Shown here one piece after another: positions 9,088 to 52,324 of a stretch of 64,000 nucleotides of DNA. Position numbers and translations under genes: made by a program. This DNA is from an uncultured Actinomycetes bacterium (GTDB lineage Bacteria; Actinomycetota; Acidimicrobiia; Acidimicrobiales; SZUA-35): the NCBI GenBank assembly GCA_902826025.1, contig CADEDH010000010.1, positions 55,146 through 119,145 on the forward strand, written 5' to 3'. Below the pieces are notes generated by a model. The model did not search any database. It was not told the DNA's origin and saw only the letters and a program-made list of their open reading frames with translations. The first letter of the stretch is position 1; each line of letters opens with the position of its first letter.

Positions 9088-12000
9088 GTGGCCATCGTGA
9101 CGACGTCGGCAGGCAGGGATCCGTTTCTGGCTCGGGTTGGGGCACCGCCCGGGCGGGCTGGCCAGCTCGAACGGTTCGTCGATCTGGCGGCGTCGCTGGC
9201 CAGCGATGGGCCCGGCCTCCACCTGCTCGAAGCCCCGGCTGGAATGGGCAAGACCCACCTGCTGGAGGCAGCGGTCGACCGGCTGGCGGGGGCCGGCTAT
9301 CGCTGCGTGCGGGCCCCGTCGGAGCAGGGCCAGGAGCCGTACCGCACTGCGGTCCGCCTGTTGGGCGACCTGGGGGTGTCGTCGGGCGATCTGCTGGGAG
9401 GTCGTCGGGCGATCGAGAACCTGATGTCCGATCGGGCCCAAGCCGATCTCGACGGTCTGCTCGGCCGCCTGGCCCAAGCCGCCCTCGACGCCATCGGCAG
9501 CCACCCCACCGTCATCGTCCTCGACGACCTCCACTGGATCGACCCGGCCTCGGCCGGCCTCGTCGACGCGCTGATCAAGGAGGCGGCGGTCGCCGTGTCG
9601 CCGCCACCGGTTCTCCTGGCGCTGGCCTACCGGCCGATCGGGCCTGGCGTCGCAGCGTCGGGCCTCGTGACCCAGGTGGCCGGGGAGCGCCGGTGTGTGA
9701 CCGAGGTGTTGGAGCCGCTCGACGGGGCGGCCCTGTTCGAAGCGATCGAGCAGCTGGTGCCGGCCACGCCCAGCCCCACCTACCAGGCCATGGTCCAGCG
9801 GGCCAGCAACGGCAACCCGTTGCGGATCCGGGCCGCAGTGGAGATCCTGCGGCGCCGCGGTGTGCCGCCGGGCGTCGGGCCCGACGACCGGCGGGCCCAG
9901 GGCACGATCGACACCTGGGCGCCGTCGGCCGATCCGGTGACGAGCTGGATCGACGGGCTCGGCGGACCGGCCCAGCATGTGCTCGGTGCCGTGGCCATCC
10001 TGGCCGCCGAGTTCACGGCGGTGGAGGCCACCGCCGTGAGCGGAGAGGCCGGGCCTCAGGTGGACGATGCCCTCGACGCCGGCCACGCCGCTGGCCTGGT
10101 GGCCACCGACGGCACCCTCTACTGGTTCACCCACGCCGTGATCCGCGACGAGCTCGCCCACCGCCTTCCGGTGAGCCGCCGGGCCCGGGCCCGGAGGCGG
10201 GCGGTGGCCTGGGAGCGGTCCCGGGCCACCGCCGATCCTGCCGCCTGGGCCCGGGCGGCCGAGCACCTCCTGCTCAGCGGCGGCTCCGAGAGCCCGAGCG
10301 ACGGGGGCCACGTCGAGATCCTGGCCGCCGCCGCCGAGTGGGCGTTCGGCACCGGTGCCTGGGCGGCAGCCGCCCGGTACGCCGAAGCCGCCATCGATGC
10401 CGCCCGCCGCGCCGGTGCCGATCCGGCCACGATGGCCGACCTGGAGCTGCGGGCGGCCGAGGCCCACCACTTCAACCACGACCTCGGCGCCACCCGACGC
10501 CGGGTGGGGGCTCTGGCCGCCGTCGATCTCAGCGCCTTCGACGACGCCACCCGGAGCCGTATCGTCCGCCTGGCGGTGAGGGCCGAGATGATGGCCAGCA
10601 TCCAGATGGGTGGGGGCGACATCGACGTGTCGGCCCTGGTCGACTTCGTGGCCGCCACCACCGACGACAGGGAACGGGCCCAAGCCCTACAGCTCCTGGC
10701 CGAGTGCGACCTGGCCGGCAACCATCTCGACGAGGCGCTGGTCCACGCCCGGGACGGGCTGGCCCACGCCCTGCGTTCGGGCGATCAGCGCACGATCGGC
10801 CTGGCCTACGCCTCGGTCGGCTTCACCCATCTCACCCGCTCCGACCTGGGTCGGGCCGAGGATGCCTATCAGCGGATGCAGGGGTCGGCCGCCGCCGCCG
10901 GCGACGGTTGGTTGCTGAGCGAGTCGCTGGCCCGACTCCCCTTCATCTCGCTGGTGGTGGGTGATCTCGACGAGACCGAGCAGCGCTCGATCCGGGCGGC
11001 CGACGCCGCCGTCACCCACCGCCAGTACGTGTCGGAGTGCCTGGCCACCTGCACCCGCGCCTCCGCCGCCCTGCTCCGGGGCGACCTGGCCGCCACCGAG
11101 CACCACAGCCGGCGGGCCCGGGCCGTCATGCACCGATCCGGCTATCTCGGCGCGCTCCAGCACTTCTATCCGGCGTGGCTCCGGTCGTTCCTGCTGACCG
11201 ACGACCTCGCCGGAGCGGAGGCGCTGCTCGATCAGTGGCGAGCCGACGGCGGGGCCGAGGCGCCGCCCGCCCGACGTTACGTCGAGCTGGTGAGCGGACC
11301 CGGCGGCCGGGACCGGCGTCCCGGTTCGATCCCGTCGGCCCGGCTCCCGACCCAGTTCCGGGTGGGGTACGCCGCTCTGCAGATCGGCCTCGACCTCCGG
11401 GCCGGCGACAACGCCAACCTCGTTGCGCTGCTCGACCTGGTGGAAGAGGGGGTCGACCTGGGGCTGGTGTTCGCCATGAATTGGCCGGTGTGTCTGTTCC
11501 GGGTCCTGGGCGACGGCCACCTGGCCCTCGGCGCACCGGCCCGGGCGGCCGGATACTACCGCCTGGCCGCCGAGCGATGCCGCCGGGTCCGGGCCCGGAC
11601 CGAGCTGGCCTTCGCCCTGGCCGGGCTGGCCACGATCGACGACCGGTCGGTGAGCGACGACGAGCGCCGCCGGGCCGCGAGCGAGGCCTATCAGTTGGCG
11701 TCCCGCTTGGGTCTGGCGGGGCTGGCCGCCCCGGCGGCGCTGGCCACCCACCAGGCGATCGATCTCGAGGCCCACGCCGCCGATCCCGGCTATCGGGTGG
11801 TGCTGGTGACCGACATCGTCGGCTCCACCCCGCTCAGTGTCGAGTTCGGCGACCGGGCCTACCACCACGTCGTCATGCACCACCACCGCCTGGTCAGGGC
11901 GGCGCTGGCCGATCACGAAGGGGTGGAGTTCAGCGAAGGCGGCGACTCGCTGTTCGCCTGGTTCGCCGATCCGGCCCGGGCCGTCGCCTGCGCCGCCGAC

Positions 12001-26846: not shown

Positions 26847-28292
26847 TCATCGGCCACCGAGGCGGTCCAACACGTTGGCCGTCATCCGCTGCACCCGGCG
26901 ATCGGCCCTGAAGGCGGCATCGCCCAGGAGGAACCGGGGCCAGTAGTTGGTGCCGACGTTGACCACGGTGCCCCCGCCCTGGTGCCGTACCTCGGTGGCC
27001 TCGTGTCGCCGCTGCTCGCCGTCGGGCGTCACGATCCCGGTTCGGGCCAGCACCGTGAGCCCGGCCAGATCGGCATCGGGGGCGTGGTCCCATTCGTAGC
27101 CGACGAGGCCGGCGATCCGGTCACCGTCGCGCAGTCCCGTGCCCCGGTAGATCCAGTGGTCGGCGGCGGTGACCGTCCAGTCGTAGCCGGCGCCGTAGCG
27201 TACGTAGTCGACGTACTGGGAGCCGAGCAGTTCGGCTTCCGGCCGCCCGACCAGGTCGTGGCGCCAGGTGGCGGTGATATCGGTGTGGGGATCGTCGGAC
27301 CACTGCCGGGCCTTGTGGCAGGTCAGGGTGGAATCGGTCAGCCGGATGCGCCAGTAGATCGAGTTGGCGGCGAAGAAGGCGGCGTTGCCGCCTGACGCGA
27401 CGAAGCCTTCCAGGGTCTGCCTCATCGGGGTGGACCAGTACTCGTCGTGAAAGACCGACACGAACAGTCGGGCCCGCTCCACCACGGTGGGGTCGCGGTG
27501 GAGGTCGAAGCTGGTGATCCATGACGCCCGCCGACCTTCGCCGGCCAGCCAACGGGCGAACTGCCAGTCGCCATAGAACAGGAAGCCGGCCCCGTTGAAC
27601 ACGTCGAAGGGGCGACGGATCGCCAGCTCCCGGGCCACACCGTGGGGCGAGTTGTAGCGGTAGAGGCTGGCGCCACCCCAGGCGTTGTAGGCGTGGTAGG
27701 TGGTCAGCGGCACCTGCACCACCAGGCCGTCACCAGCGGTGGGGTCGGCGGCCCGGATCACGAACGGGGCGTAGCGCCGCTGGCCCCGCCCCTCGGCCAC
27801 TGCCAGGTACAGGCCGCTGGGCCAAGTGGGGTCGACCGGAATCCGCAGGGCGACGGGCCACCCGGCCGGATCGTCGGTGCCGTCGGACCCGACGTCCACC
27901 CTGGATCCGGTGGCCAGCAGGCGGGGCCGCTGCCGGCCGGTCTCGGCCCCGGCCCGGATGACGGCGATCTCGACCGGGAACGGGGCCCGGGCCCGGACCT
28001 CGACGAGGTCATCCATCCCCACCGATGGTTCGGTCCACAGGGCGAACGACTGGTCGTAGGGGGGCGACTCCACGGCGGTGGCGAACTCCGTCGCCGGGTC
28101 GGGTGGAGCGTCACTCCCGATCTGACCCACCAGCCGGGCCGCACCACCCAGGGCGCCAGCGGCCGCGGCGCCGATCCCGTAACGCAACACGGCCCGGCGC
28201 CCGGTCCTCCGCTCGACCGGCTCCTCCTGTGCCAGCCTCGGTTGACCCGACGGCCCGACGCCCTCGCTGGAGTCCGACGTCGGCGACGCCAT
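26847..28292 (-). CDS. Tat-exported N,N-dimethylformamidase-large-subunit-like (DUF6605-like) protein
   Basis: Twin-arginine signal TGRRAVLRYGIGAAAAGALGG. LVVQVPLTTYHAYNAWGGASLY motif. Its ATG overlaps the upstream stop (TGATG at 28290-28294). Confidence 0.7.
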   Translation of the reverse strand: MASPTSDSSEGVGPSGQPRLAQEEPVERRTGRRAVLRYGIGAAAAGALGGAARLVGQIGSDAPPDPATEFATAVESPPYDQSFALWTEPSVGMDDLVEVRARAPFPVEIAVIRAGAETGRQRPRLLATGSRVDVGSDGTDDPAGWPVALRIPVDPTWPSGLYLAVAEGRGQRRYAPFVIRAADPTAGDGLVVQVPLTTYHAYNAWGGASLYRYNSPHGVARELAIRRPFDVFNGAGFLFYGDWQFARWLAGEGRRASWITSFDLHRDPTVVERARLFVSVFHDEYWSTPMRQTLEGFVASGGNAAFFAANSIYWRIRLTDSTLTCHKARQWSDDPHTDITATWRHDLVGRPEAELLGSQYVDYVRYGAGYDWTVTAADHWIYRGTGLRDGDRIAGLVGYEWDHAPDADLAGLTVLARTGIVTPDGEQRRHEATEVRHQGGGTVVNVGTNYWPRFLLGDAAFRADRRVQRMTANVLDRLGGR

Positions 28293-29227
28293 CAGCGCGG
28301 GAGGTCGACGTCGCAGGAATCCTGGACCGGCTCGTGTAGGTCCAACAGGGCGGCCTGCCGGTCGGCGACCGCGGCGGCCCAGGCGTCGGCGTCGATCCGA
28401 TCCGGATCGAGCCCGGCTTCGACCACCACAGCTGCCAGATCGCGATTGGCAGCGGCCAGCGCTTCGGATCTCTCGACGAGAACATCGGGCGCGGTCTGGG
28501 CCATGGCGTTGGCCGCGAACCGGATGTCGTCGATCACCCGCTGCCGACCCTCGGGGGCGGCGGAGCCGTAGTCTTCGATGGCGGCGTGGGCCGAAACGTA
28601 CCGGGCGGCGTAGCGGCAGAAGTTCCCTTCGCCGCCCGACACCGCAGCCGGCACTTGTTGGCCGGCGGCCCGTGCCACCACCTCATCTTCGGGGATCGGG
28701 CCCAACCACTTCTCAACCAGCTGGCCGTCCGGGCTGAGCAGCATGGCGCTCGGTTGGAGCGACACCCCGAGCTCGGCCCACGACTGATAGGTCGCGTCCC
28801 AGAGCATGCGGATGGTGAGCTCGTTGTCGGCCACGAACTCCTCGGCCTCCTCCAGGCTGTCCTGGGTGCCCAGACCCACCACGGTGAGCGTGTCCTCGTT
28901 CTGTCGGGCGAACTGCTCGACGCCGGCCGCTTCGGCCCGGCACACCGGTCAATGGGGGGCCCAGAACCACAACAGCACGGGGCGATCGGCCGGAACCAGG
29001 CTCTGGAGCGACACCTCGGAGCCCGACTCGACATCGGTGACCGACAGATCGGGGAGGACACCGGCCGATTGATTGGATCCGCTACCGGCCGGTGGTGGGG
29101 CCGCTGCGCCGCCGGTCTCCCCGCCGGAGCCGCACCCGGCGGCCGTAGCCGCCATCACCAGGGTGAGGCCCAGGATCGCAATCGGGCGCTTGGCCGTGAG
29201 CCGGAACCGGACCGGGAGGATCTGCAC
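28292..29227 (-). CDS. TlpA/ResA-like thioredoxin-fold lipoprotein with an in-frame TGA (28949..28951) at the first redox-Cys position. Candidate selenoprotein or a recent pseudogene.
   Basis: Two same-frame track ORFs (28949..29320 and 28292..28945) are separated only by TGA. The joined sequence reads ...RPVLLWFWAPH-TGA-PVCRAEAAGVEQF..., against the family consensus WASWCPPCRAE. Lipobox: LVMAATAAGC. The start is uncertain (GTG at 29227; the ORF is open to 29320). Confidence 0.6.
28922..28941 (-). other. G+C-rich hairpin starting 8 nt after the in-frame UGA (possible bacterial SECIS-like element)
   Basis: The mRNA reads UGA CCGGUGU GCCGG(G)CCG AAG CGG CCGGC. This gives 5 + 3 bp with one bulged G and a small G-containing apical loop. 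Confidence 0.3.
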
Positions 29228-29367
29228 CGAGGCGAAACCCGGTTCAGTGCCAGATGATTCCGACTGTTTCTCGGCGCCAGAAGCAGATGCGGATGGGGGT
29301 TCAAGCTGAACCCTTAACAATCGGAGAACACCTCGGGAGTCAGCGGACCGGCTGCCATGATGGCGAC

Positions 29368-30333
29368 ATGACGACCACCGTTACCGCGGTACGCGAGCGA
29401 GCGGCTGACATCGACCAACGAACCCGGGGGGCGGTTCTGGGTGCCGGCCGAATCATCGTCGGTCTGATGTGGCTGGCCAACCTCCACTGGAAGGTTCCAC
29501 CCGATTTCGGCCAGGACAATGGGGGCGGTCTGTTCAAGTACTCGGCCTCGGTCTCCCGCCACTCGCCGTTTGCTCCCTTCACCTGGATCACCGAGCAGAT
29601 CATCGTTCCCAACTTCGTCTTCTTCGGCTGGGTGATCCTGATCGCCGAGACGGTGGTGGCCGCCCTGCTTCTCATCGGCTACCGGACCCGGCTGGTGGCC
29701 CTGGCCGGCGCCGGCCTGGCCGTACCGATCCTGCTGTCGGTCCTGTACTACGACCGGGCCGACGAATGGTCCTGGTCCTACCTGCTGATGATCGCGGCGC
29801 ACCTGTTGATCTACGCCTCCTCCACCAGCCGCTCACTCGACCTCGACTCTGCGCTCGGGGGCGGCGAGATCCAGGTCCGAAGGGCGCTGCGGGCCGTCGG
29901 CATCGTCACCACCGTGGTCGGCCTGCTCGGGCTCTATGTCGCCCGGTCCGTAGCCTTCGCCGGATCGAGGGTGGCCCTGTTGGGCAGCGACGCCGGATTC
30001 GTGAACGATGCCGGCGACCTCGTCCGTCGCTGGGAGTTGAAGTTCCTCTGGTTCAACCCGCTGTGGGCTGTGGTCACCATCGCTGCCGGCCTGGCTGTAC
30101 TGGCCGGGGATCGATTGAGGGTGGCAGGCCGGGTGGCGGGGGGTGTCCTGGTATTGGCCGGGGTTGTGGTCTTCGTGATCGGGCGCTTCGACTACGTGCG
30201 CGACGACGGGGCGATCCAGGTGATCTCCACTGCCTCGAACTCAGCCGTGTGGTGCGGGCTGGGGCTGGCGGTGCTACTGCTCGATCGCCGCCTCCGTCGC
30301 CTCCGCACCGCTGATGCCGTCGCTGCCGCGTGA
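29368..30333 (+). CDS. DoxX-family membrane protein with an extra C-terminal TM region
   Basis: RIIVGLMWLANLHWKVPPDFG...FFGWVILIAETVVAALLLIGYRTRLVALAGAGLA. Start at the ATG at 29368. Confidence 0.65.
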   Translation: MTTTVTAVRERAADIDQRTRGAVLGAGRIIVGLMWLANLHWKVPPDFGQDNGGGLFKYSASVSRHSPFAPFTWITEQIIVPNFVFFGWVILIAETVVAALLLIGYRTRLVALAGAGLAVPILLSVLYYDRADEWSWSYLLMIAAHLLIYASSTSRSLDLDSALGGGEIQVRRALRAVGIVTTVVGLLGLYVARSVAFAGSRVALLGSDAGFVNDAGDLVRRWELKFLWFNPLWAVVTIAAGLAVLAGDRLRVAGRVAGGVLVLAGVVVFVIGRFDYVRDDGAIQVISTASNSAVWCGLGLAVLLLDRRLRRLRTADAVAAA

Positions 30334-31736
30334 CAGCGGAGAACGGCCGGCCACCGGCAGCAGGGTGGGCGAGGAGGACGATCAGGGGATCCGGCGCAGT
30401 GGCGACGAGCATCGGCCCGTGGCTGGTGGCGTTGGTGGTGATCGCGGTGGCCGTCCGCTGGGGTCGGCACCTCCAGCTGATCGAGCCGAACATCAGGCTG
30501 GGGGCGGCGCCTCTGGTTGGCGAGAACAAGAGGGACGGCTGGGACTGGCGATTCGATCGCAACCTGCTGTCCGCCGGCGGCGTCGGCCTGATCGTGTCGT
30601 TGGCGGTTTCCCGTCCCTGGTGGTGGCGATGGCCCAAGGGCGCGGTCACAGCCTTCACGTCCCTGGCGGCGGCGTGCTTCGCCACGCTGCTGGCTCTGGC
30701 CGACGGGGTCGAGGGCCACGGCGAGCTTCTGCGGGGGGCGGAGCACCCCACCGAGTACCTGGCGAACCTCGCCACGGCGCCACCGGCCGGCGCCTTCGTG
30801 CGCGGGTTCGTCGGCGACATCGACCGCTACAGCGTGCACGTCCGGGGTCATCCCCCGGGGTTCGTACTGTTGCTGAAGGTGCTCGACCGGCTCGGCCTCG
30901 ACGGACCGTGGCCCGTTGTCGGCCTGTCAGTTCTCGGCACCGCCTTGGTGCCGGTGGCGGTGCTGTCGGCGGTGGGAGCGGTCGGCGGTGACCACTGGGT
31001 TCGACGCTGCGCCCCCCTGCTGGCGGTGTCGCCCTATGCGCTGTGGCAGATGACGTCGGCCGACGCCGTCTTCAGCGCCGTGGGGGCGTTCGGAGCGGCA
31101 TGTTGCGTACTGGGTTCGGCCTCATACGGGTGGCGAGCCTGGCCGTGGGGCATCGCCGGTGGGGCTCTGCTGGCCGGGCTGCTGTTCCTCACCTATGGCG
31201 GGGCCCTGTTCCTCCTCGTGCCCGGTCTGCCGGTCGCCGTGGCCTTGTGGCGGCGGGCGGCCGCTGCCCCGGCCGTGGCGGCGGGGGCGGTTGCGGCGGC
31301 GGCCGCCGTCACTGCCGCCTTCGCCGCCGCTGGCTTCTGGTGGTTCGACGGTGTCGCCGAGACCCAGCGCCAGTACTGGGCCGGCACCGCCCGGCTCCGG
31401 CCTGCCGGGTACTTCGCCCTGGCCAACGTGGCGGTGGCGCTGATCGCCATCGGTCCCGGCGGTTTCGCCGGCCTCACCGGCCTGTGGCGTCGCCGTCGCT
31501 GCCCGCCACCGTTCGCTGCTCTGACGCTGGGGGCGCTGCTGGCGGTCGCCGGATCGAACGTGTCGCAGCTGACCAAGGGTGAGGTGGAGCGGATCTGGTT
31601 GCTGTTCTATCCCTGGTTGGTGGTGTCGGGGGGCCTGGTGGTGGGAGCGGAGCGACGATGGCGCTCGGCGGCGTTGGTGGCGTCACAGGCGGCCTGCGGC
31701 GTGGCGCTGCAGGCGGTGCTGGTGTCGAAGTGGTGA
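30330..31736 (+). CDS. Polytopic membrane protein, GT-C-like (ArnT/PMT-like?), function unknown
   Basis: At least 10 hydrophobic helices and an HPPGFVLLLK loop motif. The GTG overlaps the DoxX stop by 4 nt (GTGA). Confidence 0.5.
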   Translation: MTAENGRPPAAGWARRTIRGSGAVATSIGPWLVALVVIAVAVRWGRHLQLIEPNIRLGAAPLVGENKRDGWDWRFDRNLLSAGGVGLIVSLAVSRPWWWRWPKGAVTAFTSLAAACFATLLALADGVEGHGELLRGAEHPTEYLANLATAPPAGAFVRGFVGDIDRYSVHVRGHPPGFVLLLKVLDRLGLDGPWPVVGLSVLGTALVPVAVLSAVGAVGGDHWVRRCAPLLAVSPYALWQMTSADAVFSAVGAFGAACCVLGSASYGWRAWPWGIAGGALLAGLLFLTYGGALFLLVPGLPVAVALWRRAAAAPAVAAGAVAAAAAVTAAFAAAGFWWFDGVAETQRQYWAGTARLRPAGYFALANVAVALIAIGPGGFAGLTGLWRRRRCPPPFAALTLGALLAVAGSNVSQLTKGEVERIWLLFYPWLVVSGGLVVGAERRWRSAALVASQAACGVALQAVLVSKW

Positions 31737-45940: not shown

Positions 45941-47853
45941 GTAATTTCCCCTCCATTGGCCGTGGCGACAAGGTCGACGCCGACAAGCGCTGCGCATTCG
46001 GGGACGAGCAGCTCAACGAGAGAGTCATGCAACACGCTGGCACCGTCGTACGAGAGCACTGACTCGGGATGAAACTGATAGGAGCGGAACGTCGGTCCAG
46101 ACAGGGCGTGGACTTCACCAGTCGGCTCGTCCCGGCTCATATCGACCAGGCCGCCCGCCTTGAGTCGATAGCTGGATGCCTCAGCGCTCCAGGCGCTGAA
46201 GCTGTTGTAGAAGCCCACCGACACCGTCTTGCCGAATAGGTCGACCAGTTGCGCTCGACCCTGATTCGGAGTCTTGCGTCGCCGCACCGGGAGGCCGAGC
46301 TGGGCGCAGACGATCTGATGGCTGAGGCACACAGCCACGAACGGCTTTCTCATCGCCAGCAGCTGGCTGGCGATGGTGTGCAACCGGGCAACTCTTAGGC
46401 TATTCCAGTCCAGCGGACTCCCGGGGCCAGGCCCAAGCACCACCACGTCGTAGCCATTGAGGTTGTAGTCGTCGGCCCAGCGGCGGCGGGTCACGTCGAG
46501 GCCGAGCATGTTGAGCTGATACTCCAGCATTGAGGTGAAGTCGTCCTCGGCATCGATGACGAGAACGGACCGACCATCGAGCACCGCCCCCGGGTGGCGT
46601 TGGGCGTGTGGCTCACGCCAAAAGCCAGCGATGTTCCGGTTGCGGTTGGCCAGCATGTCTCGTATCTCGGCGTCGTCGCCCAATCGCTCCCGGCCCCTCC
46701 CCCGGAGCGCGGCCAGCATGGTCTCGGCCTTCGCCCTGGTCTCGCCGGCCTCGTGCTCCGGCACCGAATGTCGCACGATCGTCGAGCCAACGCTCACCCG
46801 CACAACCCCCGAGGGGTTGATGTCGGCGAAGCGGATCAAGATGGCGGAGTCCATGTTCACATCGCCGTCGACCAGTGCAATCACCCCGGCGTAATAGCCG
46901 CGCCCTTCGGGTTCGTGTCGGGCCACTACCCGGCACGCGTTCTCGATCGGGCTACCGACCACCGTCGGCGCAAACATCGTGGCCCGGAGAAGCTCGGCCG
47001 GACTACGGGACGTGACACCCTCGATGACGTACTCCGTGTGGGCCAGTCGGGCCATTTCCCGCAGGTGCGGCCCCACCAGGGCGATACCGGAGTCACACAC
47101 CGTTGTCATCATCTTCAGTTCCTCGTCCACCACCATGAAGAGCTCGTCTGACTCCTTACCGTCTCGAAGGAAATCGATTACGCCTTCACGGCTCGGCCCG
47201 GCCGCGGGATAGCAGTACGTCCCGCTGATCGGATTCATCTGCAATCGACCTCCCGACAGCACAAGGTGACTCTCAGGCGTCGCCCCCACCAGGGCCCGAT
47301 CTTCTAGGAAGACGAGAAAGATCCAGCGGGCTTCCGGCTCGTCCTCCAGAAGTCGGCCGAACAGAGCCAGTGCATGTCGGGCGCTGTAGTCATCGATCTC
47401 GCAGACGTAGCTCCGTTTAAGCACGAAGTTCGCCCCCTCGCCGTCCTCGATCTCTCTCTGGACCGCCTCTACCTCGGTGCAATACTCCGTGTCGCTACGA
47501 TCGAAGCCGACCTCCGCAATCTTGAAGTCGATACCACTGACGTAGCGGAGCAGATCGGCTTTCGCTATGGTCGTTGCCTCGTCAATTTCCATTCGGATCA
47601 GAGGTGACTTATCGTCAACGCAACAGTATCCGCGCTCGACCACCTGCCGGTACGGGACGACAACGAGCTGAGGCCCCGTCGTGGCCGCACTTATCTCGTC
47701 GAGTCGACTGAGCTCGCTCACCGGGCCCCGCAGAACCTCCACGGTTTCTTCGTGTGCCCCGCGCCGCCATACAAGGGCGAAGGGCTCTACGTTCTCGCCA
47801 TCACCAATGAGGTCCTGGACAAAGTCTTCAATGTTGCGGGTGGACTGTTTCAT
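45937..47853 (-). CDS. Fused chorismate-utilising (MST) plus glutamine amidotransferase enzyme, PhzE-type 2-amino-2-deoxyisochorismate (ADIC) synthase
   Basis: MST core: GATPESHL...NPISGT...DELFMVVDEELKMM...AHTEYVIEG...FAPTVVGSPIENA...GRGYYAGV. C-terminal GATase: VVVLGPGPGSP...FVAVCLSHQ...YQFHPES. 638 aa, which fits the PhzE-like fusion architecture. Confidence 0.85.
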   Translation of the reverse strand: MKQSTRNIEDFVQDLIGDGENVEPFALVWRRGAHEETVEVLRGPVSELSRLDEISAATTGPQLVVVPYRQVVERGYCCVDDKSPLIRMEIDEATTIAKADLLRYVSGIDFKIAEVGFDRSDTEYCTEVEAVQREIEDGEGANFVLKRSYVCEIDDYSARHALALFGRLLEDEPEARWIFLVFLEDRALVGATPESHLVLSGGRLQMNPISGTYCYPAAGPSREGVIDFLRDGKESDELFMVVDEELKMMTTVCDSGIALVGPHLREMARLAHTEYVIEGVTSRSPAELLRATMFAPTVVGSPIENACRVVARHEPEGRGYYAGVIALVDGDVNMDSAILIRFADINPSGVVRVSVGSTIVRHSVPEHEAGETRAKAETMLAALRGRGRERLGDDAEIRDMLANRNRNIAGFWREPHAQRHPGAVLDGRSVLVIDAEDDFTSMLEYQLNMLGLDVTRRRWADDYNLNGYDVVVLGPGPGSPLDWNSLRVARLHTIASQLLAMRKPFVAVCLSHQIVCAQLGLPVRRRKTPNQGRAQLVDLFGKTVSVGFYNSFSAWSAEASSYRLKAGGLVDMSRDEPTGEVHALSGPTFRSYQFHPESVLSYDGASVLHDSLVELLVPECAALVGVDLVATANGGEIT

Positions 47854-47876
47854 TTCGTGCCTTTCACATTCAAAGC

Positions 47877-48533
47877 TCAGAACAGCTCGACGATTGTTCT
47901 GAAGTCGATCAGTTGAGCGCATCTTGTTGACGCATAGTTGAGAGCCAGCTGATGGTGTTGGGGCGAGAAGTCGGCCACGGCGTCACCAACGAGAAACGTC
48001 TCGAGGTCCCAGCTGAAGGCTTCACACGCGGTCATCAGAACGCCTATATGTGCATAGACGCCGCACACGATCAGTTGGTCTCGCCCTGCAGCCTGGATCC
48101 GCTCCAGGAGGTCGGATCGATGGAATGCGCTGTACCTCCATTTGGTGACAATCCAGTCATCAGCACTGGGTCGGAGGGCGGAAGTCACTCCGCGATCGTT
48201 CTCATCCGACGTCATGCCCCGACCCCAGAAGGCATTGAGCAAGCCTCGGTCTTCGTCGGACATGGAGCCCGGTTGACAGCTGTAGGCAATCGGCACGCCG
48301 GCGTTGACGCAGGCGGAACGGAGGGCCGCGATGTTGGCCACGAGATCACCGACCGGCGGCTGGCCGCCGAAGCCACGGAGGAAGAAGTTCTGCATGTCAT
48401 GGATGAGCAGAATCGACCGGAGAGGATCAGGCTGCCAGGAGGCGGGAGACGGGGGAAACGTCGACCGGTCAGGCATCGGATAGGGCACCGTTTCCAGTGC
48501 CGAACTGACCAGGAGCTCAGTTCCCTCAGACAC
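47877..48533 (-). CDS. Isochorismatase-family hydrolase (PhzD-type, ADIC to DHHA)
   Basis: YPMPDRSTFPPSPASWQPDPLRSILLIHDMQNFF...VPIAYSCQPG...VTKWRYSAF...LIVCGVYAHIGV. Confidence 0.85.
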   Translation of the reverse strand: MSEGTELLVSSALETVPYPMPDRSTFPPSPASWQPDPLRSILLIHDMQNFFLRGFGGQPPVGDLVANIAALRSACVNAGVPIAYSCQPGSMSDEDRGLLNAFWGRGMTSDENDRGVTSALRPSADDWIVTKWRYSAFHRSDLLERIQAAGRDQLIVCGVYAHIGVLMTACEAFSWDLETFLVGDAVADFSPQHHQLALNYASTRCAQLIDFRTIVELF

Positions 48534-49317
48534 CGAGCGTCGCTCCGCCGTCCACGGTGACGTCCTGCAGCGTCATGTGTCTGCTCTTGTCGCCCAGGAG
48601 GAAGAGGACCACGGCCGCGATGTCCTGGGGACTGGCCAGTCGGCCGATCGGGATTCCGAGTCGGAAGGCCTCCGGATCACCGGCGATCGTCGTATGGAGC
48701 TTGTCGGCTCCGTCCCAAGATCGGGACAGCATCGGCGTCAACGTCGAGCCCGGCGAAACGACGTTGCACCGGATGCCGAGCGGCGCCACGGCCAGGCCGA
48801 GGCTTTTGGCGTAGGATGTGGCGGCCGCCTTGGATGCCGAGTAGGCGGCCATACCGGCCCGGGGAACCCGGGCCGCGTTGGAGGAAATGGTCACGATGCA
48901 TCCGGTGCGCCGCGGCAGCATTCGCCTCACTACTTCCTGCGAGACCGCCACCACCCCTCGGGCGTTCACCGCCATGCAGTAGTCCCAGTCGGCCAGGTCC
49001 AACTCGACCGGGTCGGCGGTGGTCAGCACGCCGGCGGCGTTGACAAGCAGGCCGATCGGCCCGACCTCGCGCTCGACGCGCCCCACCGTGATTCGGACCG
49101 ACTCGATGTCGGTCACGTCGGTCGCGAAGTCGACCACCTGGGACCCACCGGCCACGTGGCCCAGGAGTCGGGCCAAGGCGTCACTATCGCGGTCCACGGC
49201 GGCGACGGTGACCCCGTCGTCGACGAGGGCCTGGACGACGGCCGAACCGACTCCGCCCGCCGCCCCGGTGACCAGTGCGACCGGTCGCTGGCCGTCGCGG
49301 CTGTGGTGACCCGTCAT
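48526..49317 (-). CDS. Short-chain dehydrogenase, EntA/DhbA-type 2,3-dihydro-2,3-dihydroxy(amino)benzoate dehydrogenase
   Basis: VALVTGAAGGVGSAV, NAAG, YSASKAA (YxxxK). The ATG at 49317 overlaps the DAHP synthase stop (ATGA). Its 3' end overlaps the isochorismatase start by 8 nt. Confidence 0.8.
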   Translation of the reverse strand: MTGHHSRDGQRPVALVTGAAGGVGSAVVQALVDDGVTVAAVDRDSDALARLLGHVAGGSQVVDFATDVTDIESVRITVGRVEREVGPIGLLVNAAGVLTTADPVELDLADWDYCMAVNARGVVAVSQEVVRRMLPRRTGCIVTISSNAARVPRAGMAAYSASKAAATSYAKSLGLAVAPLGIRCNVVSPGSTLTPMLSRSWDGADKLHTTIAGDPEAFRLGIPIGRLASPQDIAAVVLFLLGDKSRHMTLQDVTVDGGATLGV

Positions 49318-50369
49318 GCGATCGTCGACAGAGTGGGGGCCGCGATCCACCGTCGCATGGCTGTGGCGACGGGCCGTAGCTCGGCCATCAAGCTCCTGAA
49401 CTGTTCCGGCAGGATTGCCTGGGCGCCGTCGCATTTGGCGGTCGCCGGGTCGGGGTGGACGTCGATGATGACGCCGTCGGCCCCGGCCGCGAGGGCGGCC
49501 AGCGTCATGGGGGCGATCAGGTTTGGGGCTCCGGTGGCATGGCTGGGATCGACGACCACCGGAAGATGCGACCGTTGCTTGACCAGCGCGACGGCGGCCA
49601 GATCAAGGGTGAAACGGAGCGAAGGATCGAAGCTGCGGATGCCACGCTCGCACAGCACGACGTTCTCGTTGCCCTCCACTAGGATGTATTCAGCCGAGCC
49701 CAGCCACTCGTCGATCGTGCTGCCGAACCCCCGTTTGAGGAGGACGGGCACGTCGCTGCGTCCGAGTTCGGTCAGCAGGCTGTAGTTCTGAGCGTTGCGC
49801 GCCCCGACCTGCAACATGTCGACGTGGTCGACGAGCGCCTCGACGTCCCGGGCGTCGACGACCTCGGACACCACCGGGAGGCCGGTCGTGGCCCGGATCT
49901 CCGACAGGATCTGCAGGCCGTCCGAACCCATCCCCTGGAAGGAGTAGGGCGACGTGCGTGGCTTGAACGCGCCGCCTCGGAGCACCGATGCCCCTTCAGC
50001 TCGCACCGCCCACGCGATCCGGCTGATCATGTCGGAGCTCTCGACCGCGCACGGTCCGGCGATCACCGTGAATCCCGACCCCCCGATCTGAACTCCACCG
50101 ACGTCGACCACGGTGTCACCGGCCCGGGAGCCGCGGTCGACGAGAGGAGCGACGTCGGCGACCGTCACGACCTCGGTGTCTCGGCCAAAGGCGTCCAGGT
50201 CGAACCGCTCGTGATCAACGAGGCCGACGGCCAAGATGGCGTCCTCACCGTTCACCCGAACCGCCAACACCGTGGTAGCGCCGGCTGAGCGCAGCGTGCT
50301 TGCGATCTGGTCGTTCGCTTTACCGGCGGGTGAGACCTCAAGGTCCACCCCTCTGATGAGCACAGCCAT
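49314..50369 (-). CDS. 3-deoxy-7-phosphoheptulonate (DAHP) synthase, type I-beta with an N-terminal regulatory domain
   Basis: VIAGPCAVES...VLRGGAFKPRTSPYSFQG...MLQVGARNAQN...LLKRG...VVVDPSH. Confidence 0.85.
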   Translation of the reverse strand: MAVLIRGVDLEVSPAGKANDQIASTLRSAGATTVLAVRVNGEDAILAVGLVDHERFDLDAFGRDTEVVTVADVAPLVDRGSRAGDTVVDVGGVQIGGSGFTVIAGPCAVESSDMISRIAWAVRAEGASVLRGGAFKPRTSPYSFQGMGSDGLQILSEIRATTGLPVVSEVVDARDVEALVDHVDMLQVGARNAQNYSLLTELGRSDVPVLLKRGFGSTIDEWLGSAEYILVEGNENVVLCERGIRSFDPSLRFTLDLAAVALVKQRSHLPVVVDPSHATGAPNLIAPMTLAALAAGADGVIIDVHPDPATAKCDGAQAILPEQFRSLMAELRPVATAMRRWIAAPTLSTIA

Positions 50370-50491
50370 AGTGAGTCCTTCAGTTGGTCAAACGGTTGTT
50401 CGCAGCACTGCGCAGCTCGCCGCAGCGGCAGCAGTCATGTCGTCTCGGTGGGTCGAACTCCACCATCGATCCCAGGCCATCGACAGGTGCA

Positions 50492-50505
50492 AAAGATCGA
50501 TCTTT
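50492..50505. promoter_or_regulatory. Perfect 14-nt palindrome in the divergent promoter region of the biosynthetic operon
   Basis: AAAGATCGATCTTT is its own reverse complement. It lies in the 335-nt gap between the DAHP synthase (-) and the FAD monooxygenase (+). CCATCGA occurs twice just upstream (50463-50469 and 50477-50483). Confidence 0.3.
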
Positions 50506-50704
50506 CTGCCCACCAAGTGGGATGACCAGATGGCTACTCCCACCGGCCCATTTGGCCGCACCCACGGCTGATCATCGGCCCCTTGCGCCCGGCGTCGTTC
50601 GCCGGGTTAATGAGGTGCGGAGAGACCGCTCCGACCGTCTCGTCCGATTTGTGTTGCCGGTCGCCTCGATCGGCAACTGGCCAGAGCACAACGGAGGCCC
50701 CAGG

Positions 50705-52324
50705 ATGAACCAGCACAGCACCTTGACCGATCGGCCGCTGACGGCGGTGGACGGACTGCCAGTAGTGGTCGTCGGGGCGGGCCCGGTCGGCTCGATTCTG
50801 GCTCTGGAGCTGGCCCGCCATGGAGTCCGGAGCATCCTCGTCGAGCGGCGCCTGGAGCCTTCGAGCCATCCCAAGATGGACTTCGTCAACTCCCGCAGCA
50901 TGGAATTCCTGCATCGCCTCGGGCTGGCCGACCGCCTGTGGGGCGACGGCGTTCCCACGGACCAGGACTTCAGGTTCATCTGGACGGCATCGTTCGGCGA
51001 TGACCTCATCGCTGACTGGTCGTCGGCATCGGTTGACGACCTGCGGCGGGAGATGGCCCGGGTCAACGACGGGACATTGCCACGGGTGCCGTATCTACGA
51101 GTCATCGGCTCCCGGTTGGAGCAGATCACGCGCCGAGCCTGTCTGGACAGTCCCTTGATCGACCTCCGGCTCGGAACGACGTTCGAGGCCCTCGACCAGG
51201 ATGGGAGTGGCGTGACGGTCACTATCACCGACGAGACCGGTCGGTCAGCTTCCGTCCGGGGCTCGTATCTGGTGGGTTGTGACGGGTCCGGCAGTCGGGT
51301 TCGGGACGCGCTTGGTATTCACAACGACGAGATCGGACCCGTCTCTCAGAATTGCAATGTGTACTTCCGCAGCAACGACCCTCGGCTGCTGAAGTACGGG
51401 CGATTCTTTCTCAGTGTGGTTGGCAGCGGGGTGACTCTTGTCACTCGTGATGGTGGCGATACCTGGACTGGTGTGTTTCCCCGATTCGACGGTGCTCCTT
51501 TCACCGACGATCCGCTACCTGTGCTGTGGAGAATGATCGGCCTCGACTTCGTCGTCGACGAAGTGTTGTCGGTGGCCAACTGGGAGAATCGACTGGCTAT
51601 AGCCACCACCTATCGTGAGGGCCGGGCCTTCATCGCCGGCGACTCAGCCCATCAGTTCTTTCCCTCGGGCGGCCACGGCGCCAATACTGGCATCGGCGAC
51701 GCCATCGATCTTGGCTGGAAGCTGGCTGCGACTCTCAGCGGTTGGGCTGATCCCGACCTGTTGCTTTCGTACGAGATCGAACGGCGACCGGTCGCTCAGT
51801 TCAATCGGGAGATGTGCTTCAGCCTCATGGAGGTATGGCGCCGGTTCATCTTCTTGAACAAGGACGGGGCGACATCATCCCAGATCGCCGGATACCTCCA
51901 CCAGCAGAAATTCCATGCCAACAACCTAGGGATCCACCTCGGCTACCGGTATCGGCAGTCGCCGGCCATCTGCCCCGACACCGATCCAGAGCCCGCCTGG
52001 CATTCCGACCGGCTGGTGGCATCGTCGTGGTCGGGGTCGCGGGCGCCCAGCATGCGCAAGGCCGACGGGACCGAGATCTACGATCTGCTCGGGCCCGAGT
52101 TCACCCTGCTCGACTTCTCCCGCGACGGCGCCGGTGAGTCGCTTGCCCACGCGGCCAGCAGCCTCGGCGTCCCCCTTTGCTGGATAACCCTCGACGAGCC
52201 ACTGCTGGCGACAACATACGAGCGTGCCCTGGTCCTGATCCGACCCGATCATCACGTCGCCTGGCGTGGTGACGAACCGCCGGCCGATGCGGTCCGTACG
52301 TTGGCTGGCCTGGTCGGACGATGA
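50705..52324 (+). CDS. FAD-dependent aromatic-ring monooxygenase (PheA/TfdB group A hydroxylase)
   Basis: VVVVGAGPVGSILALELARHG (GxGxxG), LVGCDGSGSRVR (DG motif), AFIAGDSAHQFFPSGGHGANTGIGDAIDLGWKL (GD motif). ACGGAGG RBS upstream of the ATG at 50705. Confidence 0.85.
   Translation: MNQHSTLTDRPLTAVDGLPVVVVGAGPVGSILALELARHGVRSILVERRLEPSSHPKMDFVNSRSMEFLHRLGLADRLWGDGVPTDQDFRFIWTASFGDDLIADWSSASVDDLRREMARVNDGTLPRVPYLRVIGSRLEQITRRACLDSPLIDLRLGTTFEALDQDGSGVTVTITDETGRSASVRGSYLVGCDGSGSRVRDALGIHNDEIGPVSQNCNVYFRSNDPRLLKYGRFFLSVVGSGVTLVTRDGGDTWTGVFPRFDGAPFTDDPLPVLWRMIGLDFVVDEVLSVANWENRLAIATTYREGRAFIAGDSAHQFFPSGGHGANTGIGDAIDLGWKLAATLSGWADPDLLLSYEIERRPVAQFNREMCFSLMEVWRRFIFLNKDGATSSQIAGYLHQQKFHANNLGIHLGYRYRQSPAICPDTDPEPAWHSDRLVASSWSGSRAPSMRKADGTEIYDLLGPEFTLLDFSRDGAGESLAHAASSLGVPLCWITLDEPLLATTYERALVLIRPDHHVAWRGDEPPADAVRTLAGLVGR

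What the first reader, a model, noticed from the sequence alone, without database searches (positions are those of the whole stretch)
28292..29227. In-frame TGA at the first Cys of the CxxC motif of a TlpA-like lipoprotein: selenocysteine candidate or very recent pseudogene
Seen in the sequence:
- The minus-strand reading frame is continuous across a single TGA at 28949..28951.
- The joined sequence reads ...ADRPVLLWFWAPH-[TGA]-PVCRAEAAGVEQF... TlpA/ResA-type thiol-disulfide oxidoreductases read ...FWASWCPPCRAE..., so the TGA sits exactly at the N-terminal redox Cys.
- Another 217 codons stay open after it, and the gene ends in a TGATG coupled to the next gene.
- Eight nt after the UGA, the mRNA can form a G+C hairpin, GCCGG(G)CCG-AAG-CGG-CCGGC (28941..28922).

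Established knowledge: Sec/Cys pairs at UxxC redox motifs are the classic signature of thioredoxin-fold selenoproteins. Bacterial Sec insertion needs a stem-loop just 3' of the UGA plus SelA, SelB, SelC and SelD.

Inference: this is either a lipoprotein-type, extracytoplasmic selenoprotein, which would be unusual in a high-G+C actinobacterium, or a one-step TGC-to-TGA nonsense mutation or sequencing error.
Basis: partly seen in the sequence, partly recalled or inferred. Interest (0 to 1): 0.75.

Follow-up and report, generated by a model that had tools for sequence, protein, structure and literature searches.

The report
Selenocysteine-containing TlpA/DsbE-like lipoprotein gene
The in-frame TGA is neither a mutation nor a sequencing error: it is a conserved selenocysteine codon at the active site of an exported thiol-disulfide oxidoreductase, it recurs in more than 100 related Acidimicrobiia genes, and public gene calls routinely cut these genes in two.

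Summary
The minus-strand frame 29227..28292 is open except for one TGA (28949-28951). That TGA occupies the first Cys position of the CxxC motif of a Redoxin/AhpC-TSA (TlpA/ResA/DsbE-like) domain, downstream of a signal peptide and lipobox.

The pseudogene and sequencing-error reading is rejected. All homologous genes recovered (104 in 79 Acidimicrobiia species genomes, plus 9 on metagenome contigs, including two independent 98%-identical relatives) carry TGA at this codon and none carries TGC or TGT. Protein sequence is conserved on both sides of it. A Cys-form homologue (WAPHCPIC) exists.

Two adjacent hairpins follow the TGA. The second, GUCGAGC-AGUUC-GCUCGAC, meets the published bacterial SECIS model in 85 of 98 family sequences and shows compensatory changes.

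selA-selB lie on the same chromosome as one orthologue, and tRNA-Sec lies in two further MAGs that carry an orthologue. The window's own genome could not be checked beyond its 64 kb.

UxxC Prx-like/TlpA-like selenoproteins are a listed bacterial selenoprotein kind, so this is a new member of a known kind.

Two extras: the window's subfamily has an uncharacterised C-terminal four-helix bundle, and a DMFA2_C-type gene almost always follows it immediately.

The parts
28292..29227 (-). Complete selenoprotein gene: 311 codons including one UGA = Sec (U93). The GTG start at 29227 is provisional because no clear RBS precedes it.
   Evidence: Continuous frame. Pfam and NCBIfam thioredoxin-fold hits. 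Syntenic, identical gene structure in L404/L405/L412.
29132..29227 (-). Signal peptide (RFRLTAKRPIAILGLTLVMAATAAG) ending in the lipobox Cys32 (29132-29134).
   Evidence: Read from the sequence. A signal peptide plus L-A-A-C-G lipobox is present in nearly all family members. No signal-peptide predictor was available.
28667..29056 (-). Thioredoxin-fold (Redoxin/AhpC-TSA, TlpA/ResA/DsbE-like) domain, residues 58-187.
   Evidence: Pfam. NCBIfam StoA/ResA/DsbE/TlpA partial hits. PDB DsbF and DsbE of M. tuberculosis at E 2.5e-14 and 1.8e-13.
28949..28951 (-). UGA read as selenocysteine (U93), the N-terminal, attacking position of the U-P-V-C redox motif.
   Evidence: Aligned to the first Cys of CxxC in the Cys homologue P0014 and in DsbE/DsbF. 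TGA in 113 of 113 homologous genes examined.
28940..28942 (-). Cys96, the resolving Cys of the UxxC motif.
   Evidence: Present in every family member printed.
28922..28941 (-).
   Evidence: RNAfold -13.8 kcal/mol. Every family member has a hairpin at this place, but in three different registers. It meets the bSECIS model in 17 of 98 sequences.
28903..28921 (-). Hairpin 2: GUCGAGC-AGUUC-GCCCGAC, with its loop 34 nt after the UGA. This is the best bSECIS candidate for the family. In this window it is weakened by one A.C mismatch.
   Evidence: On the family alignment 90% of cells pair, against 23-36% when the partner is slid. Compensatory changes: C-G to U-A in 4 sequences and G-C to C-G in 6. 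It meets all four bSECIS criteria in 85 of 98 sequences; the window copy scores -5.9 kcal/mol and misses the -7.5 cut. It is absent from the Cys-form homologue.
28313..28633 (-). C-terminal extension, residues 199-305: predicted four-helix bundle bracketed by two invariant Cys (C204, C305). No Pfam family.
   Evidence: AlphaFold2 pLDDT 85-97 over this part. No PDB fold match with E below 0.02. Invariant columns FCRY...DDIRFAxNAMAQT...C. No Pfam hit beyond residue 187.
26847..28292 (-). Translationally coupled (TGATG) downstream gene: a DMFA2_C-domain protein with a twin-arginine-like N-terminus. Probable functional partner.
   Evidence: Pfam DMFA2_C, E 3e-77. A DMFA2_C gene lies directly next to the long-form Sec gene in 9 of 10 distinct contexts, although the other flanks differ.

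Best explanation
The gene at 29227..28292 (minus strand) encodes a lipid-anchored, extracytoplasmic thioredoxin-fold thiol-disulfide oxidoreductase of the actinobacterial DsbE/DsbF-TlpA-ResA type. The attacking Cys of its CxxC motif is replaced by selenocysteine (U-P-V-C).

Proposed mechanism: the UGA at 28949-28951 is recoded during translation. SelB, carrying Sec-tRNA(Sec), binds a stem-loop in the mRNA just 3' of the UGA (hairpin 2 and/or hairpin 1, 28941..28903) and delivers Sec to the ribosome instead of terminating. The full-length protein is exported and lipidated at Cys32. Its selenolate/thiol pair then exchanges with disulfides or thiols of envelope proteins.

Shown here: the conserved UGA, coding conservation on both sides, the conserved hairpins, and Sec machinery in genomes that carry orthologues. 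Inferred: that SelB binds these hairpins, that the protein is exported and lipidated, the direction of electron flow, and the substrate. ccdA lies nearby in nine related loci, which points to a protein kept reduced. The best guess for the substrate of the window's long form is the adjacent DMFA2_C-type exported protein.
For: 1. The UGA aligns to the catalytic Cys. The Cys-form homologue P0014 reads LLVWAWAPHCPIC, and M. tuberculosis DsbF and DsbE read WFWAPWCPTC and WFWTPWCPFC.

2. The UGA is conserved. 104 of 104 instances in 79 Acidimicrobiia species-representative genomes are TGA and none is TGC or TGT. The same holds on nine further metagenome contigs, including L404 and L405, which are 98% identical in protein and come from two different sequencing runs.

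3. Both sides of the UGA are under protein-level constraint. tblastn alignments of the N-terminal part are found in 75 loci, and those printed end at the base before the TGA. Identity is 22-29 of 60 residues upstream and 53-62 of 95 downstream in distant members. The W-x-[WY]-A-P-H-U-P-x-C-R motif is nearly invariant.

4. Public gene callers start 15 of the 16 closest database homologues after the TGA, which is the usual signature of an unrecognised selenoprotein.

5. Hairpin 2 is 90% paired with compensatory changes, against about 30% for slid controls. It fits the published bSECIS model (PMC13188914) in 85 of 98 sequences. It uses GCU-CGA codons, unusual for a roughly 70% G+C genome.

6. Sec machinery. 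selA and selB (L211) lie on chromosome NZ_OZ244793.1, which also carries the orthologue (L021). tRNA-Sec (L316, L344) lies in the same MAGs as L072 and L079. selD-selA-selB-selC are clustered in the Ilumatobacteraceae locus L235.

7. Other in-frame-TGA genes of known selenoprotein families (AhpD-like CxxU, GRDB-like) sit on the same contigs as orthologues.

8. TGA is the normal stop for most ORFs in the window, so this is site-specific recoding and not a variant genetic code.
Against: The window's own genome could not be searched. No selA, selB, selD or tRNA-Sec lies within the 64 kb, which is uninformative either way.

In the window and its nearest relatives hairpin 2 carries an A.C mismatch (-5.9 kcal/mol, below the model's -7.5 cut). 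Hairpin 1 lacks a G in the first two loop positions. No single hairpin of this particular copy therefore passes the consensus bSECIS model.

Single-sequence folding energy is not better than shuffles. Rfam has no matching SECIS family.

There is no experimental evidence of selenium incorporation. The start codon and lipidation are read from the sequence only.
Confidence: 0.9

Rival explanations
1. Recent nonsense mutation (TGC to TGA) or sequencing or assembly error: the gene is a pseudogene or the A is a wrong base call.
For: A single base separates TGA from TGC. Gene callers treat the locus as two ORFs.
Against: TGA is present at the same codon in 113 of 113 homologous genes, from 98% down to about 45% protein identity, from independent samples and assemblers. 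None has TGC or TGT. Both halves remain conserved as protein. The downstream RNA hairpin is conserved.
Confidence: 0.01
2. The UGA is a conserved site, but it is either a true stop (giving a 92-residue lipoprotein, plus a separately initiated C-terminal protein from GTG 28945) or is read through with a standard amino acid (Trp or Cys by near-cognate or suppressor decoding), not Sec.
For: There is no direct evidence of selenium. A GTG lies 2 codons after the UGA. The window's own hairpins do not individually pass the bSECIS consensus.
Against: A stop here would cut the thioredoxin fold inside its active-site motif, leaving neither half functional. Yet both halves co-vary as one domain. The position is the one where Sec/Cys exchange is known in UxxC selenoproteins (PMC13188914, PMC2398784). 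Genomes carrying orthologues have selA, selB and tRNA-Sec. Family-wide, hairpin 2 fits the SelB-type element. TGA is the commonest ordinary stop in the window.
Confidence: 0.05
3. The conserved nucleotide pattern after the TGA reflects only amino-acid conservation (C-R-A-E-A-P-G-V-E-Q-F-A-R) and G+C richness. It is not a functional RNA element, and Sec insertion would use some other signal.
For: Hairpin 1 changes register between clades and is only 67% paired in any fixed register, with slid controls at 40-61%. Shuffled sequences fold about as well. RNAalifold did not recover either hairpin.
Against: Hairpin 2 keeps pairing through a non-synonymous R-to-Q change matched by a synonymous GUC-to-GUU change (C-G to U-A, 4 sequences) and through G-C to C-G (6 sequences). 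It uses rare GCU/CGA codons. The single Cys-form homologue, which reads VEAFAG instead of VEQFAR, lacks it.
Confidence: 0.1

Closest known systems
UxxC 'Prx-like thiol:disulfide oxidoreductase' and 'thiol:disulfide interchange protein' selenoprotein families (Zhang and Gladyshev; listed in PMC13188914, PMC2398784, PMC5029168)
   Same: Thioredoxin/AhpC-TSA-Redoxin fold (PF00578, PF08534). Sec in the first position of a UxxC motif. Cys-form homologues exist. A stem-loop follows directly after the UGA.
   Different: This clade is confined to Acidimicrobiia. It has the motif W-x-[WY]-A-P-H-U-P-x-C, is a lipoprotein, and was Sec in every copy recovered. The window's subfamily adds a C-terminal four-helix bundle. 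No direct sequence comparison with the published reference accessions was possible here.
Mycobacterium tuberculosis DsbE (MPT53, PDB 1LU4) and DsbF (PDB 3IOS)
   Same: Best solved-structure relatives by sequence (E 1.8e-13 and 2.5e-14). The active-site context WFWAPWCPTC / WFWTPWCPFC is nearly identical. Both are actinobacterial and exported. DsbF is a lipoprotein (from my own knowledge).
   Different: They use Cys, not Sec, have W where this family has H before the redox residue, and lack the C-terminal bundle. From memory, not tested here: they were reported to act as oxidases, so the direction of the reaction for the Sec protein cannot simply be copied from TlpA/ResA.
TlpA / ResA / StoA / CcmG (DsbE) reductases supplied by CcdA/DsbD
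   Same: Same fold and CxxC position. A ccdA (DsbD_TM) gene lies 0.5-7 kb from the Sec gene in L004, L005, L018, L029, L038, L064, L065, L069 and L409.
   Different: All NCBIfam scores are far below the family cut-offs, so it is not an equivalog of any of them. No cytochrome c maturation genes lie nearby. No ccdA lies in the window.
[quoted passage not shown]
   Same: TlpA-type fold with Sec at the redox centre.
   Different: That family has a U-G-C motif. Here the motif is U-P-x-C, the classical CxxC spacing.

Membership tests
Bacterial selenoprotein gene (SelB/SECIS-dependent UGA recoding) | In-frame UGA aligned with Cys in homologues (Sec/Cys pair) | tested here: met
   P0014 reads WAPHCPIC (TGC). 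DsbF and DsbE CxxC alignment.
Bacterial selenoprotein gene (SelB/SECIS-dependent UGA recoding) | UGA conserved in orthologues, with coding conservation on both sides | tested here: met
   113 of 113 are TGA. N-terminal tblastn alignments found in 75 loci; those printed end at the base before the TGA. Identities on both sides.
Bacterial selenoprotein gene (SelB/SECIS-dependent UGA recoding) | bSECIS stem-loop: loop 3-9 nt with G in its first two positions, stem 4-16 bp, 16-37 nt from the UGA, MFE at most -7.5 kcal/mol (PMC13188914) | tested here: inconclusive
   For the family, hairpin 2 passes in 85 of 98 sequences, with covariation. For the window copy, hairpin 2 passes on loop, spacing and stem but scores -5.9 kcal/mol. 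[quoted passage not shown]
Bacterial selenoprotein gene (SelB/SECIS-dependent UGA recoding) | selA, selB, selC and selD in the same genome | tested here: inconclusive
   Absent from the 64-kb window, and the rest of this genome is not available. In genomes with orthologues the feature is partly met: selA plus selB on NZ_OZ244793.1 (L211 with L021); tRNA-Sec in the MAGs of L072 and L079 (L316, L344); a full selD-selA-selB-selC cluster in Ilumatobacteraceae L235.
Bacterial selenoprotein gene (SelB/SECIS-dependent UGA recoding) | Selenium actually incorporated at the UGA | not testable with these tools
   Needs 75Se labelling or mass spectrometry.
Thioredoxin-fold TlpA/ResA/DsbE-like oxidoreductase (Pfam Redoxin / AhpC-TSA) | Domain match above the curated cut-off | tested here: met
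   AhpC-TSA 51.3 bits (cut-off 26), Redoxin 47.7 (26.6), Thioredoxin_8 35.7 (27).
Thioredoxin-fold TlpA/ResA/DsbE-like oxidoreductase (Pfam Redoxin / AhpC-TSA) | CxxC-type redox motif at the N-terminus of helix 1 | tested here: met
   U93-P-V-C96 aligned to the CPTC and CPFC of DsbF and DsbE.
Thioredoxin-fold TlpA/ResA/DsbE-like oxidoreductase (Pfam Redoxin / AhpC-TSA) | Extracytoplasmic location (signal peptide or lipobox) | tested here: met
   By inspection only. Basic n-region, hydrophobic core and A-A-G-C lipobox in the window. L-A-A-C-G in most homologues. No predictor was run.
Specific equivalogs: ResA, StoA, CcmG/DsbE, TlpA (NCBIfam) | Score above the equivalog or subfamily cut-off | tested here: not met
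   Best score is 38.9 bits against cut-offs of 123-230. It is a relative of these families, not a member of any of them.
Published 'Prx-like thiol:disulfide oxidoreductase' selenoprotein family | PF00578 domain with Sec in a UxxC motif | tested here: met
   Family definition taken from the table in PMC13188914.
Published 'Prx-like thiol:disulfide oxidoreductase' selenoprotein family | Sequence clustering with the reference members (for example WP_010940744.1) | not tested
   The reference sequences could not be fetched with the tools at hand.

The most novel reading that the evidence does not exclude
The window's long-form subfamily is more than another UxxC selenoprotein. It is a Sec-thioredoxin domain fused to a previously undescribed four-helix bundle with two invariant cysteines, and it is kept next to (usually co-directional with, here TGATG-coupled to) an exported DMFA2_C-type protein. 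Together these may form a dedicated extracytoplasmic two-gene module in which a selenoprotein matures, repairs or redox-gates one specific envelope enzyme. That would be a client-specific selenium-dependent Dsb-like system.
Probability: 0.25. Interest if true: 0.55.

Novelty: new member of a known kind. Interest (0 to 1): 0.42.

Why it matters
1. Annotation. Across Acidimicrobiia, a widespread class in soil, freshwater, marine and sponge habitats, this gene is called as two fragments or as a truncated ORF. The active-site half is lost, so an envelope redox enzyme is missing from metabolic reconstructions.

2. Sec usage. Every copy recovered in this clade uses Sec and none uses Cys. The clade is therefore a good natural case for asking what selenium buys in an extracytoplasmic, oxidising compartment.

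3. A testable SECIS candidate. The family supplies a compact, conserved element (GUCGAGC-AGUUC-GCUCGAC, 34 nt after the UGA) for high-G+C Actinomycetota, a group for which Rfam returned no SECIS match.

4. A lead on function. The conserved pairing with a DMFA2_C-domain exported protein gives that poorly understood domain family a possible functional context.

Tried and rejected
- Rfam scan of 28700-29100 at E up to 10: only a chance sRNA hit, no SECIS family.
- RNAalifold on the 51-sequence alignment returned an uninformative structure. Named structures were counted instead.
- ARAGORN, and tblastn with E. coli SelA, SelB and SelD, on the window and on loci L001-L080: nothing found. Repeated on the window with Acidimicrobiales SelA and SelB: nothing found.
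- Other abutting same-frame ORF pairs in the window (TGA at 463, 4009, 34229, 62959) looked like ordinary stops followed by intergenic sequence, not further Sec codons.
- A crude scan of all loci for other in-frame TGAs was mostly noise from antisense frames. Only the AhpD-like and GRDB-like cases were kept.
The post-UGA fragment was modelled instead, so the truncated thioredoxin part is low-confidence.
- Foldseek against PDB gave no significant match for the C-terminal bundle, only generic four-helix bundles at E above 0.02.
- Neighbourhoods of short-form members (L007, L022, L029) showed no shared functional partner.
- Folding the regions after the TGA of the AhpD-like and GRDB-like candidates revealed no common motif that would decide between hairpin 1 and hairpin 2.
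- Literature searches for Ilumatobacter plus selenocysteine found nothing relevant.
Full report
**1. The observation**

On the minus strand, the frame that starts at GTG 29227 and ends at the stop 28292-28294 is interrupted only by TGA 28949-28951. The surrounding peptide is ...DRPVLLWFWAPH-[TGA]-PVCRAEAAGVEQFARQ.... After the TGA, 218 further sense codons stay open. The gene's TGA stop overlaps the ATG of the next ORF (TGATG).

With Cys in place of the stop, the protein matches Pfam AhpC-TSA, Redoxin, Thioredoxin_8 and Thioredoxin above their curated cut-offs. It matches NCBIfam StoA, ResA, DsbE, MauD and TlpA weakly, far below their cut-offs. The best solved-structure relatives by sequence are M. 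tuberculosis DsbF (3IOS, E 2.5e-14) and DsbE/MPT53 (1LU4, E 1.8e-13). In those alignments the TGA column falls exactly on the first Cys of WFWAPWCPTC and WFWTPWCPFC.

The N-terminus reads as a signal peptide ending in an A-A-G-C lipobox at Cys32. In this G+C-rich context, however, the region folds no better than shuffled sequence (z = -0.54).

**2. Is the TGA an accident?**

A protein search with the joined sequence returned 16 close homologues. Fifteen of them are C-terminal fragments that begin just after the TGA position. The sixteenth, P0014, is a full-length Cys form reading ...WAWAPHCPICAGE.... That pattern suggested gene callers were breaking a conserved TGA.

Fetching the DNA confirmed this. 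Eighty loci from species-representative genomes came back, nearly all labelled Acidimicrobiia (Ilumatobacteraceae, Ca. Poriferisocius and others). They held 104 copies of the motif in 79 loci. All 104 have TGA and none has TGC or TGT. The 80th locus is cut off at the motif.

Nine further metagenome contigs all have TGA too. They include L404 and L405, which come from two different sequencing runs and differ from the window gene at only three codons.

The reading frame upstream of the TGA is conserved as protein. tblastn found the N-terminal part in 75 loci, and the alignments printed end at the base before the TGA. Most copies carry a signal peptide and an L-A-A-C-G lipobox.

A recent nonsense mutation or a base-call error is therefore excluded. 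TGA also terminates most ordinary ORFs in the window, so this is site-specific recoding and not an altered genetic code.

**3. RNA signal**

In every family member two adjacent hairpins follow the TGA.

- Hairpin 1 lies roughly at +11 to +31. It is G+C-rich but sits in three different registers in different clades. In a fixed register only 67% of cells pair, and slid controls reach 40-61%.
- Hairpin 2 lies at +31 to +49: GUCGAGC-AGUUC-GCUCGAC. It is 90% paired, against 23-36% for slid controls. It shows compensatory C-G to U-A changes (4 sequences, through an R-to-Q replacement matched by a synonymous GUC-to-GUU change) and G-C to C-G changes (6 sequences).

[quoted passage not shown] Hairpin 2 passes in 85 of 98 unique sequences and hairpin 1 in 17 of 98. 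The one Cys-form gene lacks hairpin 2.

In the window and its nearest relatives hairpin 2 carries an A.C mismatch (GCC instead of GCU; -5.9 kcal/mol). Hairpin 1 is correspondingly longer there (-13.8 kcal/mol). I cannot say which of the two binds SelB in this copy. Rfam has no matching model.

**4. Sec machinery**

The window holds no tRNA genes at all, and so no tRNA-Sec. It also has no selA, selB or selD. That says little for a 64-kb piece.

To test the lineage I scanned the genome collection for the SelA pyridoxal-phosphate motif written in G+C-rich codons. This gave selA-selB pairs in Acidimicrobiales MAGs (L116, L172). A SelA alignment led by one of these then found selA in many Acidimicrobiia. 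Among them is L211 on chromosome NZ_OZ244793.1, where selB follows directly. The same chromosome carries the Sec-TlpA orthologue in L021.

From tRNA-Sec genes found beside these clusters I derived a lineage-specific pattern. Two of them (L316, L344) belong to the same MAGs as orthologue loci L072 and L079.

In the Ilumatobacteraceae locus L235, selD, selA, selB and selC are clustered. A 2026 preprint independently reports the full machinery in Actinomarinales, another order of the class (10.64898/2026.04.03.716425). On the same contigs as some orthologues lie two further in-frame-TGA genes of known selenoprotein kinds: AhpD-like E-C-F-Y-U and GRDB-like.

**5. What it does**

The protein is an exported, lipid-anchored thioredoxin-fold oxidoreductase with a U-P-V-C centre. 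From established chemistry, a selenolate at the attacking position is a better nucleophile and leaving group than a thiolate, and it resists irreversible over-oxidation. That suits an oxidising envelope.

The direction of electron flow is not settled. A ccdA (DsbD_TM) gene lies within 0.5-7 kb in nine related loci, as it does for TlpA/ResA-type reductases. On the other hand, the closest characterised relatives, mycobacterial DsbE and DsbF, were described as oxidases (from my own knowledge, not tested here). No cytochrome c maturation genes are nearby.

The window belongs to a long-form subfamily. About 110 extra C-terminal residues are predicted with high confidence (pLDDT 85-97) as a four-helix bundle bracketed by two invariant Cys. 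This part has no Pfam family and no significant PDB fold match.

In 9 of 10 distinct genomic contexts a DMFA2_C-domain gene lies directly next to this long form, downstream and co-directional in all but L409, where it is convergent. In the window the two are TGATG-coupled, and the downstream protein has a twin-arginine-like N-terminus. The other flanking genes differ between contexts. That makes the DMFA2_C protein the best guess for a client or partner. This is inference only.

**6. Comparison with what is known, and verdict**

UxxC thioredoxin-fold selenoproteins of the 'Prx-like thiol:disulfide oxidoreductase' (PF00578) and 'thiol:disulfide interchange protein' types have been catalogued since 2005-2008 and appear in current reviews (PMC13188914, PMC2398784, PMC5029168). 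The present gene meets the defining features of that kind. It is not an equivalog of ResA, StoA, CcmG or TlpA.

It is therefore a new member of a known kind. It is real, conserved, systematically mis-annotated, and carries some additional unexplained architecture. Sec use is common, not unusual, in this actinobacterial class.

Confidence that this is a genuine Sec codon is about 0.9. Interest is moderate (0.42).

Noticed in passing
L022 9995 and 10605. Likewise L023, L028, L031, L032, L037, L039, L043-L045, L051, L053, L062, L063, L066-L068, L070, L072-L075.: Sponge-associated Ca. Poriferisocius and related Acidimicrobiales carry two tandem Sec-TlpA paralogues about 600 bp apart. Each has its own lipobox, TGA and hairpins. 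The upstream copy has a long Pro/Thr-rich linker.
   Followed up: partly
L038 17368 (+); L069 5791 (+): An in-frame TGA in a CMD/AhpD-like protein with the motif E-C-F-Y-[TGA]-x-x-x-H-S (CxxU). It lies on the same contigs as Sec-TlpA orthologues. AhpD-like is a known selenoprotein family.
   Followed up: partly
L038 6359 (+): An in-frame TGA in a GRDB-like protein (PF07355, E 5e-5) with the motif LLTPV-[TGA]-PLC. It is a probable further selenoprotein on the same contig.
   Followed up: partly
window 26847..28292 (-), and the DMFA2_C genes next to the Sec gene in L001, L404-L407, L409-L413: The long-form Sec gene lies directly next to a DMFA2_C-domain (N,N-dimethylformamidase beta-like) gene in 9 of 10 contexts. 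L002 is the exception. The window copy has an RR-type N-terminus (RRTGRRAVL).
   Followed up: partly
window 29254..30333 (+) and 30330..31736 (+): A DoxD/DoxX-like membrane protein gene sits divergently upstream of the Sec gene. It overlaps by 4 nt a 468-aa polytopic membrane protein gene with no Pfam family. The arrangement is syntenic in L404 and L412. A possible redox link to the lipoprotein was not examined.
   Followed up: no
L404 9719-9997 plus 10001-10654; L405, L411, L412; P0001-P0016: Public gene calls split the selenoprotein into a 91-99 aa N-terminal ORF and a 175-217 aa C-terminal ORF. Neither fragment has a Pfam hit on record.
   Followed up: yes
L408 304-1146 and 1255-1842: In this contig a DDE transposase gene sits directly upstream of the C-terminal fragment P0013, and no N-terminal or TGA part was found. 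This is possibly a genuinely disrupted copy.
   Followed up: no
L003, L050, L064 (record titles): Contigs carrying the Acidimicrobiia-type Sec gene are labelled Planctomycetota, Chloroflexia and Phenylobacterium MAGs. The likely cause is mis-binning or mislabelling.
   Followed up: no
L235 9039-13065; also L225, L228, L239, L247, L279: selD, selA, selB and tRNA-Sec are clustered within about 4 kb in several Acidimicrobiia. In L211 (Ca. Poriferisocius) only selA-selB are adjacent, and selC and selD lie elsewhere.
   Followed up: partly
window 46001-52000 compared with the rest: G+C drops to 0.62-0.63 in the sub-windows 46001-48000 and 50001-52000, against about 0.69-0.75 across 1-34000. The gene content there was not examined.
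   Followed up: no
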